DNA of 62,274 nucleotides from Minisyncoccota bacterium (GCA_028712445.1 JAQTPY010000002.1:1-62274); one strand, 5' to 3'; counted from the first letter of the stretch, positions 44,533 through 49,156 are shown. The notes: generated by a model not told the origin, from the sequence alone. Program-made: numbers and translations.

Positions 44533-44625
44533 TCATTTGGAGATATTGGGGATGATTTGAGTAAAAACGTAATAGACAGCAAACACTGTCAATAAAATTA
44601 TGGCTAATATTTCTATTTTATTCAT
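44533..44625 (-). CDS. Candidate 30-aa single-TM peptide, absent from the ORF track
   Basis: MNKIEILAIILLTVFAVYYVFTQIIPNISK*; its ATG shares the last base of the tRNA-Val CCA. Confidence 0.4.
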   Translation of the reverse strand: MNKIEILAIILLTVFAVYYVFTQIIPNISK

Positions 44626-44699
44626 GGTGGACGGTACAGGATTCGGACCTGTGGCCTCTTCGATGTGAACGAAGCGCTCTACCTCTGAGCCAACCGTCC
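44625..44699 (-). tRNA. tRNA-Val(CAC), CCA encoded
   Basis: GGACGGT/ACCGTCC acceptor; CTTCG-TTCACAT-CGAAG; T loop TCCGAAT. Confidence 0.92.
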
Positions 44700-44816
44700 C
44701 TAAAACCTTTCTTGCAATAATAGAATATCATAGCGCATGAAAAGGGGCAATTGCCCCTTTTCATGTTTCTGCCCAGCGTTCAAAACTATTCTTACTTCTT
44801 AAGATTAAAGGCCATT

Positions 44817-45875
44817 CTATCTATTCAAAACCTCCCGGATTCTTATCTTGGCTATCTTTGCCTGCAACATCTTTCTGTTCTTATATTCCCGAAGTTGCTT
44901 TTTCCTTTCATCCATCCACTCTTCCAATCTAAGAATGTTAGACTTGAAGATCCAGATCATCATTAAGGTTAAAAGCAATGGAAGGAAGAAAGAATCAAAG
45001 AAGATGTTGTTTGTGAAGCCGGTAGGAATGTTGGTTGCTCCGCTGACGGTACCCTCCTTATTGACAGTCACCTGGGACGCATCCGAACTCTTGACCTTAT
45101 CGTTGTAGGCCATTGCCGTATTGGTCAATTTTGTTTTTCCGAAACTGAACTTTCCCGCCTCAGCCACCCTGGCATGAAAGACTATGGTTTTTGTCTGATT
45201 GGCAGCAATATTACCTATATTTACCCCCTTGGTAATATCACCGCTCAGACTGACTCCATTCATGCTCAAATTGCCAATATATGTAAGCTTGTCTGGTAAA
45301 GCATTCTTGACCGTCACGCCGCTTAAATCCGTCCCTCCGGCTTTAACCTGAATTTTGAAAGCCAGAAGATCTCCGGGTTTGGCAGTGACAGAATCGGCAA
45401 AAACATTGGGATTTGCAATAAGACCAACCAAACTGGTGATATTTATTGACGCTGTGGCCACTTGCGAAGTTCCGGTTTTATCCTCTGTGTCGTCCCAAGG
45501 AATTTGTTCAGTTTCCACATCGTAGTCCCAAGGAGACTCGCTGCCATCTCCTATGACGCTCTCGCCTCCGGTATCATTGAAATCCCACGGTGTTTCTGTT
45601 TCCATTTCGTCATCCCAGGGCAATTCGCTTACCGGGTTTTGAGTCAAAACCAATGTCTGACTTGCTCCGGGATCCGTGGTGGTTCCCTGATCCTCCTCTT
45701 GATCATCCCAAGCTATATCGTTGAGAACAGTCGGTTCTGAAGTTACTTCTGAAACTGTATTGTTCCTTGCCGATTGATCGCCGGCATCAGCAATATAGTC
45801 CCAATCGGCGCTTACCACACCGGCAGGAGCGATCTGAAAAAGAATCAAACCGAGTGTTAAGAAGATTTTTAACAT
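44817..45875 (-). CDS. Exported surface protein: acidic WD-motif region, DUF11-like Ig domain, IPTG motif + C-terminal TM
   Basis: Signal peptide; AKPGDLLAFKIQV..VTVKNALPDKLTYI..IGNIAANQTKTIVF..LTNTA; TNIPTG then TM and basic tail. Confidence 0.75.
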   Translation of the reverse strand: MLKIFLTLGLILFQIAPAGVVSADWDYIADAGDQSARNNTVSEVTSEPTVLNDIAWDDQEEDQGTTTDPGASQTLVLTQNPVSELPWDDEMETETPWDFNDTGGESVIGDGSESPWDYDVETEQIPWDDTEDKTGTSQVATASINITSLVGLIANPNVFADSVTAKPGDLLAFKIQVKAGGTDLSGVTVKNALPDKLTYIGNLSMNGVSLSGDITKGVNIGNIAANQTKTIVFHARVAEAGKFSFGKTKLTNTAMAYNDKVKSSDASQVTVNKEGTVSGATNIPTGFTNNIFFDSFFLPLLLTLMMIWIFKSNILRLEEWMDERKKQLREYKNRKMLQAKIAKIRIREVLNR

Positions 45876-45972
45876 AATTTTCCCCCATTTATTAATATCT
45901 TTTCGACCTTTAATCTTAAAAGAATATCTATGGGTTTACCCACAGATTTTCTTGCACCTGAAAGTAATCGAT

Positions 45973-46113
45973 AAAACAAAAACAGGTCAAAAACCTGTCC
46001 AAAAACCATCAAACTTTCACTTCCCTTCTCCCCCTTTACGTCCCCTCTCTCCCTATTAATAAGGACGCTTAGAAAGTTTAGCATTAAACTATTAAATTGT
46101 TTCCTCTACTTTT
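45973..46113 (-). promoter_or_regulatory. Structured 5' leader with terminator, copy A
   Basis: AACAATTTAATA, GTTTA/TAAAC stem, 29-nt core 46039-46067, ACAGGT/ACCTGT terminator 45982-45998. Confidence 0.7.
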
Positions 46114-46142
46114 AGAATATAAAAATTGAGGAGACGTGTCAA
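46114..46142 (-). promoter_or_regulatory. sigma70 promoter for leader A
   Basis: TTGACA-17nt-TATTCT. Confidence 0.75.
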
Positions 46143-46144
46143 TA

Positions 46145-46861
46145 TCAGGAATCTTCCGATGATAAAACTGCTTCTATAAAAATTCTTTGAATATTTTTCC
46201 CCGGAGGCCAGCAGCTTATGAGCAAAAGTATATTTTTTGAATCAACCAGCTCATTTTTAGCCGGTTCCTCTCCCCTGTTTATGATGAATTTTTGGCTGAA
46301 AATATATTTGTATTCTTTTTCATTAAAAATAATTAGTATTTCATCTCCTTCGGCAAGATCGTTAAGTTTGCTGAAAACCCAGTCAAACTTTATCTTTGGC
46401 CAGCCAGGAGGCGCGCTGTGCCCCAAAATTATAGTTTGTCCAACCCTCCCGGGAAGAACTGATTTAGGATAATGAATTACACCCTTATTAAGCGACTTGT
46501 GAAGAATCGTCTCGTTCTCATCGGGATTATCAAAAAATATTATAGGAGCTTCAATGCCGATCTTTGGAATTTTAATCGATCCCTCCTTCTCCAAAATCAC
46601 CTCTTCTTCAATTTCCGGAACAAGACTTTCCAATTCAGCTCCACTCAAAATTATTTGACTTTCACTCTTTCGAAACAAATTCTCTACCATTCCCGAAATC
46701 ACTCGATAATTGAAAACCCAGCCGTAAGTGTCAAAATTGAGGGAAATAAAAGAAATCGCAAAAAAAACAGCAAAATACTTCCAGATTTTGCCTACAAAAG
46801 AAACATTGCTCGCGCAAGAAGAAATATGTTTAAACTTTTTCTCTCTATTCTCTCCCCTCAT
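46145..46861 (-). CDS. Sortase-family protein
   Basis: N-terminal TM; IKIPKIGIEAPI, LNKGVIHYP, ILGHS, LISCWPPG..QR (His/Cys/Arg). Confidence 0.88.
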   Translation of the reverse strand: MRGENREKKFKHISSCASNVSFVGKIWKYFAVFFAISFISLNFDTYGWVFNYRVISGMVENLFRKSESQIILSGAELESLVPEIEEEVILEKEGSIKIPKIGIEAPIIFFDNPDENETILHKSLNKGVIHYPKSVLPGRVGQTIILGHSAPPGWPKIKFDWVFSKLNDLAEGDEILIIFNEKEYKYIFSQKFIINRGEEPAKNELVDSKNILLLISCWPPGKNIQRIFIEAVLSSEDS

Positions 46862-46900: not shown

Positions 46901-47962
46901 ATGCAGGTTTTTGAATTTCTTTTTAATCCCAAAATCAAAGACAATTTAGTTTTTGATAGTTTTTGCTACGATCCTCAAAACATCTACGAAAAAAGGATGG
47001 GAAGTCTTTATATGGCAGGATCATTAAAGAATGTCCTGCCTCAAAACCTTTATTTCCTGAATAATTTAGCTAAAGCAATCAGAGAAAGATATTATAAAAC
47101 AATTTCTGCTACGCCTGAGAAATCGCTGAAAGAGACCTTGAGGAAAGTTAATGATTATCTTGAAAAGGTGGCAAAAAGTGGAGACGTAAGCTGGCTGGGG
47201 AACTTAAATTTTACCGTCCTTTCGCTAAAAAACTACGAACTTAATTTCACTAAGGTCGGTGACCTGAAAATCTATCTGATAAGAAAGGGGCAGATCATAG
47301 ACATCGATCAGAAACTTAAATTTGAAGAAATTGAACCCTATCCGCTGAAGATCTTTGGCAACATCGTCTCGGGGACTCTAAATGAAGACGATGTAATTTT
47401 GATTGCGACCAAGGAAATTTCTGATTTCTTTATCCAGGACAATCTCATGAATGAATTCTCAAAAATCTCTCTGTCCATTTCCGATTGTCCGGAAAAAAGA
47501 AATTTAAGCGCGGTTAAGAAGGTTTTTGAAAACAAAAAAGAAAGACTCGGTCTTATTTCCGGCGTTTGTCTTTTTGTCGGCCTCAGCAAAGAATCGTTGC
47601 CGAAGGAAAAAGAAATCGTGGCTGCCGGAAAAAAGAAACTCAACTTTGCAAAAAACGTCGCCTCCTTCCTGAAACCTCCCGCGATGCCCAAAACCATTGC
47701 AACCATTAAAAAACCTGTTTTTTCTTTTACTCTTCTTGAAAAAATAAAAAGGATAAGAATCTATTTAAATTTGATTTTTTTAAATATTACGCGCCTCCTA
47801 TTCACCTCGATCCGCCTAATTTCAAACCTGCGCGGAAAATGCAAAAAATCTTCCCGTTTGAATTTCAATACTTTTTTGACTAAGAATAAAAACTGGTGTC
47901 TGGTTCTCCTTTTTATAATCGTCCTTTTTATCGGCTCCCTTATAACAAATCTGACTGATTAA
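46901..47962 (+). CDS. Hypothetical protein, possibly a degenerate PP2C/PPM-like fold, with C-terminal TM
   Basis: LNFTKVGDLKIYLIRKGQIIDI, SGTLNEDDVILIAT resemble PPM strands; metal-binding Asp motifs not evident. Confidence 0.5.
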   Translation: MQVFEFLFNPKIKDNLVFDSFCYDPQNIYEKRMGSLYMAGSLKNVLPQNLYFLNNLAKAIRERYYKTISATPEKSLKETLRKVNDYLEKVAKSGDVSWLGNLNFTVLSLKNYELNFTKVGDLKIYLIRKGQIIDIDQKLKFEEIEPYPLKIFGNIVSGTLNEDDVILIATKEISDFFIQDNLMNEFSKISLSISDCPEKRNLSAVKKVFENKKERLGLISGVCLFVGLSKESLPKEKEIVAAGKKKLNFAKNVASFLKPPAMPKTIATIKKPVFSFTLLEKIKRIRIYLNLIFLNITRLLFTSIRLISNLRGKCKKSSRLNFNTFLTKNKNWCLVLLFIIVLFIGSLITNLTD

Positions 47963-48022: not shown

Positions 48023-48829
48023 CTAGAAGAGCACTACTATGAATTCTGCTGACGGGTCATTTTCGATGGGCCATACTCTGTCCGCTCTAACATCCACGCC
48101 GTAGACCTTGACCACACCGCCTGATTCGGCAAGAATGATGGAGAAGACAGGATTGGTGCGAGTAGGTTTGACGAAACCGACCGGAATAGTATCCCAACCT
48201 GGCTGAGATTTAATGGCGCCCTGAAGATAAGCCACGTAATCGGAATCTTCACCTAGAGCCAGTTTATCACCCTGGTCTGAATTCAGAAAACGCTGAACTT
48301 CTGAAAGCGAGATTACGCCGTATTGCTTCCTCTCCGGCCCCCTGATCCGGCACTCTGGGAATGTCTGGCGAAGAACGTTCATCACATCGGCCTGGTTAAC
48401 CATCTTAGATATGCTCGGAGCTGAAGTTGTAGCCGTAGTGACAGCTGTTGACTGGGTGACTGCGGCTGCTGCTGCCGGAGCTCCCTTGCCAAGCAAGCTC
48501 TGCAAACTGTCTATCTTGCTCTGCTGACTGGCAATGATCCCCTCTTTTGCAGCTACTTGCTGGAGTAAAGCCGTGTTTTTTGCCTGGTAATCATTGACCG
48601 TGGATCGCAGCGCTGCCACTTCAGAGCTGGTATTTGCCCGGGCTGAGGCCAGCATGGGAGCCATCACAATAATGGCTATGGCCAAAACCGCGATAGAAAT
48701 GTTCCGCCAGTTATTTTTGAACCAATCTCCCACCTTCCGCGCAGTGCTCCTTACTTCAGTAGGTATACCTCCCGGTACGGGCGCCGTCCGTTCGACTGCC
48801 CTTTCCTCTCTCTCTTCTGGGTTTTGCAT
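48023..48829 (-). CDS. Membrane-anchored coiled-coil protein (paralogue of 5487-6377)
   Basis: TM, coiled coil, Ala/Thr linker, shared C-terminal domain; ATG 7 nt after GGAGG. Confidence 0.8.
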   Translation of the reverse strand: MQNPEEREERAVERTAPVPGGIPTEVRSTARKVGDWFKNNWRNISIAVLAIAIIVMAPMLASARANTSSEVAALRSTVNDYQAKNTALLQQVAAKEGIIASQQSKIDSLQSLLGKGAPAAAAAVTQSTAVTTATTSAPSISKMVNQADVMNVLRQTFPECRIRGPERKQYGVISLSEVQRFLNSDQGDKLALGEDSDYVAYLQGAIKSQPGWDTIPVGFVKPTRTNPVFSIILAESGGVVKVYGVDVRADRVWPIENDPSAEFIVVLF

Positions 48830-48952
48830 TTCATTTCCTCCTTTTGATTTCCTTCCTTGCAAACTTTAGTTTCGTTGCCAGACCCCTGACTATTAAACAC
48901 ATTATCTTTTCTTACAATTTTTACCTCCTTCTTTCTTTCAATTTTTGTTTGG

Positions 48953-49103
48953 AAAAAAACAAAACAGGTCAAAAAGACCTGTGAACACATCTTATAATTA
49001 TTCTCCCTCCCCCTACGTCCCCTCTCTCCCTATTAACAAGGACGTATATTGTTATGCTCATTCAAAAATTAGAATTGAGCTATTAAATTGTTCTCTCAAT
49101 TTC
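48953..49103 (-). promoter_or_regulatory. Structured 5' leader with terminator, copy B
   Basis: AACAATTTAATA, GCTCA/TGAGC stem, 29-nt core 49016-49044, ACAGGTC/GACCTGT terminator 48964-48982. Confidence 0.7.
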
Positions 49104-49133
49104 AAGATAACAAAAAACAAGGCCGTCTGTCAA
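49104..49133 (-). promoter_or_regulatory. sigma70 promoter for leader B, overlapping the rplL terminator
   Basis: TTGACA-18nt-TATCTT. Confidence 0.55.
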
Positions 49134-49147
49134 ATGCCTTGTTTTTT
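49112..49147 (-). terminator. rplL terminator
   Basis: AAAAAACAAGGC-12nt-GCCTTGTTTTTT. Confidence 0.85.
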
Positions 49148-49156
49148 GTATATAGT

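What the first reader, a model, noticed from the sequence alone, without database searches (positions are those of the whole stretch)
44817..46861. Sortase next to a candidate substrate with a non-canonical IPTG sorting signal
Seen: a sortase with His/Cys/Arg (GHS, ISCW, QR) lies immediately upstream of a secreted DUF11-like protein ending SGATNIPTG, a hydrophobic helix and a long basic tail. Knowledge: sortases cleave LPxTG-type signals located before a TM and basic tail. Inference: a CPR-type sortase/substrate pair using (N)IPTG. The substrate has its own promoter and leader A, so it can be regulated separately from the enzyme.
Basis: partly seen in the sequence, partly recalled or inferred. 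Interest (0 to 1): 0.55.

Follow-up and report, generated by a model that had tools for sequence, protein, structure and literature searches.

The report
Dedicated sortase with proline-less sorting signal
An ultra-small (CPR, Nealsonbacteria-type) bacterium keeps one surface-anchoring enzyme (sortase) next to its single client protein, whose anchoring tag is a conserved, uncatalogued variant (T-x-[V/I]-x-T-G plus a long conserved tail) of the textbook LPXTG signal, which gives a way to predict this uncultured lineage's surface adhesins.

Summary
Window 46145-46861(-) is the genome's only sortase, with His148/Cys217/Arg226 intact. The next gene, 44817-45875(-), is the only protein in the 697-kb genome with a signal peptide, a DUF11 stalk, NIPTG, a membrane helix and a 42-residue basic tail.

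The pairing is real. 23 of 24 related genomes with this C-terminal module also have a sortase. In 18 of those 23 the sortase lies directly upstream on the same strand.

"IPTG" is not the conserved motif. In 150 independent cluster representatives, T-G is near-invariant (148 and 149 of 150). The residue three before G is V or I (146/150). Aligned on T-G, V/I sits where LPXTG has its Pro.

The whole 83-residue module always lies at the extreme C-terminus. It carries varied passengers and matches no Pfam or NCBIfam model. It was found only in this order (Nealsonbacteria/Minisyncoccales). The enzyme belongs to a phylum-wide sortase family but has its own [ST]CWPPG motif. One relative carries this system and a canonical TLxTC sortase with an LPDTG substrate side by side.

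Cleavage and the acceptor are inferred. This scan has noted analogous CPR variant signals on other genomes, but not this module. Verdict: a new variant of a known kind.

The parts
46145..46861 (-). Sortase gene (238 aa). It has an N-terminal membrane helix, a disordered tether (residues 68-88) and a catalytic beta-barrel (94-233). Catalytic codons: His148 at 46418-46420, Cys217 at 46211-46213, Arg226 at 46184-46186. Subclade motifs are LGHSAPPGWPKI and ISCWPPGKN.
   Evidence: PF04203 at 59.6 bits. Only sortase in the genome. H/C/R invariant in 32 sequences. AF2 model pLDDT 80. Foldseek hits to sortases of classes C, D, E and A at E 1e-11 to 1e-9. Coordinates.
45876..46144 (-). Intergenic leader ('leader A'). 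It has a promoter-like TTGACA-17-TATTCT at 46142-46114, terminator-like hairpins at 46000-45980 and 45947-45926, and a G-rich ribosome-binding site before the ATG.
   Evidence: It is 76% identical to a second copy at 48863-49156(-). No Rfam match.
45807..45875 (-). Signal peptide of the substrate (residues 1-23, ending VSA before D).
   Evidence: Read from the sequence.
45456..45806 (-). Variable passenger region (residues 24-140). It is strongly acidic (32 D/E against 2 K/R) with six [P/A/D]-W-D-[D/Y/F] motifs. Homologues have PKD or Ig-like domains here instead.
45057..45446 (-). DUF11 ('CLIPPER') beta-sandwich stalk domain (residues 144-273). The isopeptide triad is degenerate in this copy (Ser148, Asn191, Asn252).
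   Evidence: PF01345. Model pLDDT >90. Foldseek hit to 9IFR CLIPPER and to Gram-positive pilins. Triad counts.
45006..45056 (-). Flexible linker (residues 274-290) that carries the sorting motif. The core T281-N-I-P-T285-G286 lies at 45018-45035. The inferred cleavage site is between Thr285 and Gly286.
   Evidence: Low-pLDDT linker between the sandwich and the helix. T-G and V/I conservation.
44946..45005 (-). Conserved membrane helix (residues 291-310) with Asp294 and the invariant Pro299.
   Evidence: P(+13) 150/150 and D(+8) 140/150. Helix predicted.
44820..44945 (-). Conserved 42-residue basic amphipathic cytoplasmic tail (residues 311-352), of the form ...EEW-x-D-x-RKK...Y-K...
   Evidence: W(+34) 139/150. 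Continuous helix with the membrane segment. Net charge +8.

Best explanation
This is a dedicated sortase-substrate pair. The secreted DUF11-stalk protein is exported by Sec and held in the membrane by its C-terminal helix and basic tail. The membrane-tethered sortase encoded just upstream recognises the exposed linker motif T-x-[V/I]-x-T-G. It most likely cuts between Thr285 and Gly286 and transfers the protein to an amine acceptor, most probably the peptidoglycan precursor lipid II. A 66-residue membrane remnant is left behind. The signal is a lineage-specific replacement of LPXTG, with a polar residue and then V/I where Leu-Pro normally sit. It is read by a subclade of the phylum-wide CPR sortase family marked by [ST]CWPPG. 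Shown here: the anatomy, the conservation, the co-occurrence and the gene adjacency. Inferred: cleavage, the cleavage site, the acceptor and the role of the tail.
For: (1) There is one sortase and one candidate substrate in a genome scored 100% complete, and they are adjacent and co-oriented.
(2) The catalytic His/Cys/Arg are invariant and the fold is a sortase fold.
(3) The module was found in 24/100 relatives, and 23 of these have a sortase, against 12/76 without the module. At family level the counts are 17/17 against 10/59. In 18/23 the sortase is within 4 kb upstream on the same strand. This count includes G011, where the pair spans a circular-overlap contig junction.
(4) T(-1) is 148/150, G(0) 149/150, [VI](-3) 146/150 and P(+13) 150/150. 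The module is always at the extreme C-terminus, on proteins of 84-2208 aa with varied passengers.
(5) The motif lies in a low-confidence, exposed linker five residues before the membrane helix.
(6) Five more CWPPG sortases sit next to DUF11 proteins that keep the core motif with a different tail or with T-A/A-G variants.
(7) Natural control: in G042 a CWPPG sortase with a TDVSTAG protein coexists with a TLFTC sortase and an LPDTG/short-tail protein. G024 has only the canonical pair.
(8) No exosortase or rhomboid is present to process the module instead.
(9) MraY, Mur ligases and FemAB-like genes are present, so a lipid II acceptor is available.
Against: There is no biochemical evidence of cleavage, and nothing identifies the acceptor. 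The 42-residue, sequence-conserved tail is unlike the short, unconserved tails of classical sorting signals. It could mean the protein stays membrane-anchored. The canonical Pro, important for substrate recognition in characterised sortases (general knowledge), is absent. Related genomes are not independent samples, so the association statistics overstate significance. Six sortase-positive relatives could not be assessed because their contigs end at the locus.
Confidence: 0.7

Rival explanations
1. Pilus or fibre assembly rather than wall anchoring. The sortase acts like a class C enzyme and joins Thr285 of one DUF11 protein to a lysine of the next, building a covalent surface fibre.
For: The top sequence and fold matches of the enzyme are class C sortases, by a narrow margin. 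The stalk domain resembles sortase-assembled pilins and the CLIPPER domain. The arrangement of one enzyme with one substrate resembles pilin cassettes. A Lys in the G-Q-x-K-T-I-T-F strand is conserved in 19/24.
Against: No class C 'lid' motif is conserved ahead of the barrel. All NCBIfam class models score far below their cut-offs. No recognisable pilin motif was seen. Passengers vary from 84 to 2208 aa, which fits adhesins better than pilins. A housekeeping sortase to anchor a fibre is missing, since the genome has only one sortase.
Confidence: 0.13
2. Permanent membrane anchor. The module is an uncleaved tail anchor whose conserved cytoplasmic helix binds a partner. The adjacent sortase acts on something else, or only rarely.
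For: The tail is long, conserved in sequence and predicted as one continuous helix with the membrane segment. This is atypical for sorting signals.
Against: This does not explain the invariant T-G in an exposed linker just outside the membrane. It does not explain the 23/24 co-occurrence and conserved adjacency with a sortase. It also does not explain the absence of any other candidate substrate in the genome. In G056 and G094 the core motif persists with a quite different tail, so motif and tail can be separated.
Confidence: 0.12
3. One reading: a simple L-to-I variant of LPXTG in which (N)IPTG, with its Pro, is the recognition element.
For: This genome's copy does read NIPTG. 24/150 representatives have Pro at that position.
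Against: Pro is at position -2, not -3. It is replaced by Ser in 85/150 and by A, I, K, N or V in others. Position -3 is V or I in 146/150.
Confidence: 0.03

Closest known systems
LPXTG cell-wall sorting signal with housekeeping sortases (class A/E type; TIGR01167, PF00746)
   Same: Same layout: a signal peptide, a passenger, a short motif ending in T-G, a hydrophobic helix and a basic tail. The enzyme is a membrane-tethered Cys transpeptidase with a His/Cys/Arg triad.
   Different: There is no Leu-Pro; a polar residue and then V/I sit at -4/-3. A conserved V-A-G-A-A-T lies upstream. The membrane helix is conserved (D+8, P+13, W+22). The tail is 42 residues and conserved in sequence. Neither model matches, even at E<=10. 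The enzyme serves one substrate, not many.
Class C sortases and their pilin signals, commonly summarised as (I/L)(P/A)XTG (from general knowledge, not tested here)
   Same: These are the nearest solved structures by a small margin. The cassette pairs an enzyme with a dedicated substrate, and the substrate has an Ig-like stalk.
   Different: No lid is evident. The class C model scores 44.9 bits against a 160-bit cut-off. The motif lacks Pro/Ala at -3.
Single-substrate sortase systems of some Gram-negative bacteria (from general knowledge, not tested here)
   Same: One sortase gene lies next to its only predicted substrate.
   Different: Different lineage, different motif and different passenger. 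No sequence relationship was tested.
Canonical TLxTC sortase with LPSTG/LPDTG substrates in the same order (genomes G024 and G042)
   Same: Same lineage, same gene layout, and DUF11-like passengers.
   Different: The canonical enzyme motif (LVTC, TLFTC) goes with a canonical LPxTG and a short RKKR-type tail. In G042 it coexists with the CWPPG system, which suggests two orthogonal specificities.
Other CPR variant sorting signals noted by this scan (LVSTG with a conserved helix; VPYTG with a conserved cytoplasmic tail; APxTG; FFPAG)
   Same: Same theme: lineage-specific tags beside unclassified CPR sortases. Some also have V at -3 or a conserved tail.
   Different: They are on other genomes, and no sequence look-alike of this module was found in the scan's index. 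Those notes were not tested here.

Membership tests
Sortase family (Pfam PF04203 / MEROPS C60) | Profile match above the curated cut-off | tested here: met
   59.6 bits against a 26.6-bit cut-off; 61 bits in the genome search.
Sortase family (Pfam PF04203 / MEROPS C60) | Catalytic His, Cys and Arg in the conserved positions | tested here: met
   H148, C217 and R226 align with the catalytic residues of solved sortases and are invariant in 32 homologues.
Sortase family (Pfam PF04203 / MEROPS C60) | Eight-stranded beta-barrel sortase fold with an N-terminal membrane anchor | tested here: met
   AF2 model with barrel pLDDT about 90 and an N-terminal helix. There were 139 Foldseek PDB matches at E<=0.001; all 35 rows printed are sortases.
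Sortase family (Pfam PF04203 / MEROPS C60) | Transpeptidase activity on a sorting signal | not testable with these tools
   Needs a peptide cleavage and ligation assay.
Sortase classes A-F (NCBIfam class models) | Score above a class model's cut-off | tested here: not met
   Best scores were D at 47.2 and 45.6 bits (cut-offs 140 and 165), C at 44.9 (160), F at 27.1 (166) and E at 27.2 (160). The fold search does not separate the classes.
Sortase classes A-F (NCBIfam class models) | Canonical TLxTC active-site motif | tested here: not met
   This order's subclade reads L-I-[ST]-C-W-P-P-G. Related CPR sortases in other orders read TLMTC[WTV]PxGT.
LPXTG-type cell-wall sorting signal (TIGR01167 / PF00746) | L-P-x-T-G pentapeptide | tested here: not met
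   Position -3 is V or I in 26/26 and 146/150. Position -4 is polar. T-G itself is kept.
LPXTG-type cell-wall sorting signal (TIGR01167 / PF00746) | Hydrophobic segment directly after the motif | tested here: met
   Residues 291-310 are predicted helical.
LPXTG-type cell-wall sorting signal (TIGR01167 / PF00746) | Short, positively charged tail | tested here: not met
   The tail is basic (net +8) but 42 residues long and conserved in sequence.
LPXTG-type cell-wall sorting signal (TIGR01167 / PF00746) | Match to the curated models | tested here: not met
   No Pfam or NCBIfam family at E<=10 for the 83-residue module.
DUF11 / CLIPPER isopeptide stalk domain (PF01345) | Profile match and CnaA-like beta-sandwich | tested here: met
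   38.1 bits against a 24.6-bit cut-off. Model pLDDT >90. 9IFR is at rank 2 in Foldseek.
DUF11 / CLIPPER isopeptide stalk domain (PF01345) | Lys-Asp-Asn isopeptide triad (PMC12617251) | tested here: not met
   The window copy has Ser148, Asn191 and Asn252. Relatives have K in 16/24, D in 18/24 and N in 20/24.

The most novel reading that the evidence does not exclude
The CWPPG sortases are a naturally orthogonal, proline-independent specificity class that reads T-x-[V/I]-x-T-G. The conserved 66-residue remnant left in the membrane after cleavage (helix plus amphipathic tail) is itself functional. It could dock the substrate to the enzyme, or it could report surface-protein export to the cytoplasm. 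The anchored DUF11/PKD proteins would then be the adhesins by which these epibionts attach to their hosts.
Probability: 0.25. Interest if true: 0.7.

Novelty: new variant of a known kind. Interest (0 to 1): 0.5.

Why it matters
Sortases occur in most CPR/Patescibacteria genomes (PMC6744442; 353 of 401 genomes). I found no paper that says what signals they read. Motif searches for sortase substrates use LPXTG-like patterns, for example the regex list in PMC12617251, and would miss this family entirely.

A defined module and enzyme subclade gives a way to predict the surface proteins of Nealsonbacteria-type epibionts. Members of that group are reported to attach to methanogenic archaea (PMC10936435).

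A sortase that does not need the Pro, and that coexists with a canonical one in the same cell, would also interest people who use sortases as orthogonal protein-ligation tools. The conserved cytoplasmic tail raises the question of what a sorting-signal remnant does after cleavage.

Tried and rejected
- My first genome-wide regex (x-P-x-[TSA]-G) missed the protein itself, because IPTG has only four residues. This exposed the register problem. The broader search gave only spurious ORFs and polytopic membrane proteins besides the target.
Gene context for the metagenomic homologues P0002-P0013 could not be obtained that way.
- Curated C-terminal sorting-domain models gave no hit at E<=10.
- Exosortase and rhomboid/rhombosortase as alternative processors are absent from the genome.
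- The search for related loci failed with alignment A4 (no conserved word) and found nothing with the single module. It worked with a tighter alignment, which supplied the organism names.
- Class assignment by fold failed, because classes C, D, E and A score alike.
- I looked for substrates next to related sortases in other orders. They are mostly not adjacent. One neighbour carries a canonical LPRTG.
- The CAP/SCP-like membrane protein upstream of the sortase in relatives was considered as a possible third component. It is not encoded in this genome, so it is not required.
- The 279-aa protein at 48023-48862 was considered as part of the system. Its similarity to small proteins in relatives' cassettes is weak (E 0.002 in a tiny database), so this is not established.
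- PMC10231131 (the Nealsonbacteria paper) is not held.

Full report
**1. Observation**

The window holds a 238-aa ORF at 46145-46861(-) and a 352-aa ORF at 44817-45875(-), separated by 269 bp.

The first ORF matches Pfam Sortase (59.6 bits). It is the only sortase in the 697-kb, 24-contig genome, which is scored 100% complete. Its LGHS, ISCW and QR elements align with the catalytic His, Cys and Arg of solved sortases. These three residues are invariant in 32 homologues.

The second ORF has these parts:
- a signal peptide (residues 1-23);
- an acidic region (24-140) with 32 D/E, 2 K/R and six WD motifs;
- a DUF11 domain;
- NIPTG at 282-286;
- a hydrophobic stretch at 291-310;
- a 42-residue tail with 14 K/R and 6 D/E.

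A genome-wide search for motif + helix + tail found no other credible candidate. The description is therefore accurate.

One point of register needs correcting. IPTG is a tetrapeptide. When T-G is aligned with LPXTG, the Pro falls on the 'x' position and Ile falls where Pro normally sits.

**2. The C-terminal module is a conserved, portable domain**

Thirteen database homologues share the last ~80 residues far better than the rest of the protein.

A search of 100 related genomes found the module in 24, usually once per genome.

A profile of the module was run against 1.84 billion representative proteins. It found 346 hits (258 at E<=1e-10). In every one of the 150 listed hits the match ends at the protein's C-terminus, on proteins of 84 to 2208 aa.

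On those representatives the counts are T(-1) 148/150, G(0) 149/150, [VI](-3) 146/150, [TS](-5) 143/150, D(+8) 140/150, P(+13) 150/150 and W(+34) 139/150. Position -2 is Ser in 85 and Pro in 24.

Passengers vary. Among 82 scanned, DUF11 occurs in 57, PKD-type domains in about 25, Big_9 in 15, and there are also fn3, laminin-G, CBM35 and others. One relative carries the module on a protein without DUF11.

No Pfam or NCBIfam model matches the module, even at E<=10.

**3. Structure**

An AF2 model of residues 138-352 (pLDDT 90.9) shows three parts. There is a beta-sandwich at 144-273, a low-confidence linker at 274-290 that contains the motif, and a single helix at 291-351. The T-G therefore lies in an exposed segment five residues outside the membrane helix.

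The sandwich matches the solved CLIPPER/DUF11 domain 9IFR and sortase-assembled pilins.

DUF11 is described as a CnaA-like stalk domain of fibrillar adhesins with a Lys-Asp-Asn isopeptide triad (PMC12617251). Most relatives keep the triad, but this copy has lost Lys and Asp.

**4. Linkage to the sortase**

Of the 24 relatives with the module, 23 have a sortase. Of the 76 without it, 12 do. Fisher p is 7e-13. At family level the counts are 17/17 against 10/59, p 2e-10. Relatives are not independent, so these p-values are upper limits of significance.

The one exception (G005) has the substrate gene close to a contig end (locus L012; contig length).

In 17 genomes the sortase lies within 4 kb upstream on the same strand. 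In an 18th (G011) the pair spans the junction of a contig whose ends overlap by about 100 nt, and the ORF stays open in frame across it. In the other five the two genes are on different contigs.

Among the 12 'sortase-only' genomes, five have a DUF11 protein beside the sortase that keeps the core motif. The tail is different or the core has a T-A/A-G variant: VAGEVTEVPTG, VAGAITEIPTG, AATEVNTAA, PTDVSTAG, PTLIPAG. Six sit at contig ends and cannot be judged.

Four of those five diverged signals lie beside sortases reading PPGV[ND] rather than PPGK[DN]. The fifth (G094, VAGEVTEVPTG) lies beside a PPGKD sortase. This hints at co-variation, but on very few cases.

**5. The enzyme**

The order's sortases share LGHSAPxGWPKI and L-I-[ST]-C-W-P-P-G.

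All NCBIfam class A-F models score far below their cut-offs. Fold matches to classes C, D, E and A are nearly equal. I therefore do not assign a class.

A profile of this subclade detects related sortases in 353 of 401 genomes sampled across the phylum, often in several copies. That tally includes one unpublished genome, G251. This agrees with the report that more than half of CPR genomes carry a sortase family (PMC6744442).

In contrast, the module was found in none of the 400 other phylum-sample genomes. Only five of these came from this order, and three of those five had already lacked it. The enzyme family is therefore phylum-wide, and the module is specific to this order.

Out-of-order relatives read TLMTC[WTV]PxGT and mostly lack an adjacent substrate. 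One neighbour carries a canonical GATTELPRTG signal with a short RKRLK tail. Aligned on T-G, this shows directly that Leu-Pro has been replaced here by a polar residue and V/I.

**6. A natural control**

Within the same order, G024 has a canonical LVTC sortase next to an LPSTG protein with a short RKKRTV tail. G042 has both systems: a TLFTC sortase with an LPDTG/RRRVL protein, and a CWPPG sortase with a TDVSTAG protein. Two enzyme types, each beside its own signal type in one genome, is what two orthogonal specificities would look like.

**7. Rivals and context**

No exosortase or rhomboid is encoded. MraY, five Mur-ligase-type genes and FemAB-like genes are present, so the usual lipid II acceptor is plausible.

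Pilus-type polymerisation cannot be excluded. It lacks support from a lid or a pilin motif.

The long conserved tail is the main unexplained feature. It could retain or dock the substrate, or it could act after cleavage.

**8. Lineage**

Named records that carry the module are Candidatus Nealsonbacteria, Minisyncoccales, Ca. Parcubacteria and Ca. Staskawiczbacteria. A few carry automatic 'Saccharibacteria' labels. Nealsonbacteria are reported as ectosymbionts of methanogens (PMC10936435). An adhesin role for the substrate is a reasonable speculation, not a result.

**9. Regulation claim**

A promoter-like site lies directly after the sortase stop codon, followed by terminator-like hairpins in the 269-bp spacer. 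The spacer is 76% identical to a second leader in front of the 279-aa gene at 48023-48862. No Rfam family matches, and the leader core is absent from relatives' loci. Separate regulation is plausible but untested, and it belongs to another finding.

**10. Novelty**

I found no paper describing a CPR sortase signal. Published regex lists for sortase motifs would not catch this one.

This scan has noted analogous variant signals on other genomes, such as LVSTG, VPYTG with a conserved tail, APxTG and FFPAG. It has no look-alike of this module.

I class the finding as a new variant of a known kind: a sortase system with a proline-less signal and a conserved extended remnant.

Noticed in passing
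window 45876-46144 (-) and 48863-49156 (-): Two homologous leaders, 76% identical. They share a TTGACA box, GAACAATTTAATAG, a CGTCC...GGGGACG hairpin and a terminator-like TTTTTGACCTGTTTT. One precedes the sortase substrate and the other precedes a 279-aa membrane protein just after rplL. No Rfam match. The core 20-mer is absent from 113 loci of relatives.
   Followed up: partly
window 48023-48862 (-): A 279-aa protein with an N-terminal membrane anchor, a coiled/Ala-rich region and a C-terminal globular domain. It has no Pfam hit. It has three paralogues in this genome (C23:5490-6116, C19:1194-1889, C5:29661-30050). It shows only weak similarity to small proteins that lie between the sortase and the substrate in G011 and G050.
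   Followed up: partly
window 45057-45446 (-): The DUF11/CLIPPER domain of this copy has lost two of the three isopeptide-triad residues (Lys to Ser148, Asp to Asn191; Asn252 kept). Most relatives keep all three, and loss of Lys and loss of Asp tend to go together.
   Followed up: yes
window 45456-45806 (-): The passenger region is unusually acidic (32 D/E, 2 K/R in 117 residues) with six [P/A/D]-W-D-[D/Y/F] motifs. Homologues carry PKD/Ig-like domains here instead. Its function is unknown.
   Followed up: no
L071:6170-7189, L063:126-1292, L072:3974-4999 (relatives): In many relatives a ~340-390-aa CAP/SCP-like membrane protein ending ...LIPHNLxI lies directly upstream of the sortase and overlaps its start. 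tblastn found no copy in this genome.
   Followed up: partly
L061 and L062 (genome G042); L059 (G024): G042 carries two sortase systems side by side: CWPPG-type with TDVSTAG, and canonical TLFTC with LPDTG. G024, in the same family as the window's genome, has only a canonical LVTC sortase with an LPSTG substrate.
   Followed up: partly
L070:3461-5248 (G023); L072:1967-3353 (G016): Extra ORFs lie between sortase and substrate. In G023 there are Pro/Gly-repeat proteins and a degenerate second sortase copy (SCWPSDKD). In G016 there are Tyr/Pro/Arg-rich proteins.
   Followed up: no
window 44625-44699 (-) and 44741-44761: tRNA-Val (cac) lies directly downstream of the substrate gene. It follows a palindromic GC-rich hairpin that could terminate transcription in both directions.
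   Followed up: partly
window 46901-47962 (+): A 353-aa ORF divergent from the sortase, with a C-terminal hydrophobic segment. It has no significant family match, only sub-threshold Cas8c/Csd1 noise.
   Followed up: no
L128 / L004 (G011 contig C7, JAPLXL010000005.1): The last 100 nt of this 224,967-bp contig recur at positions 5-105 of its start. This suggests a circular or wrap-around assembly. The substrate ORF is continuous across the junction.
   Followed up: yes
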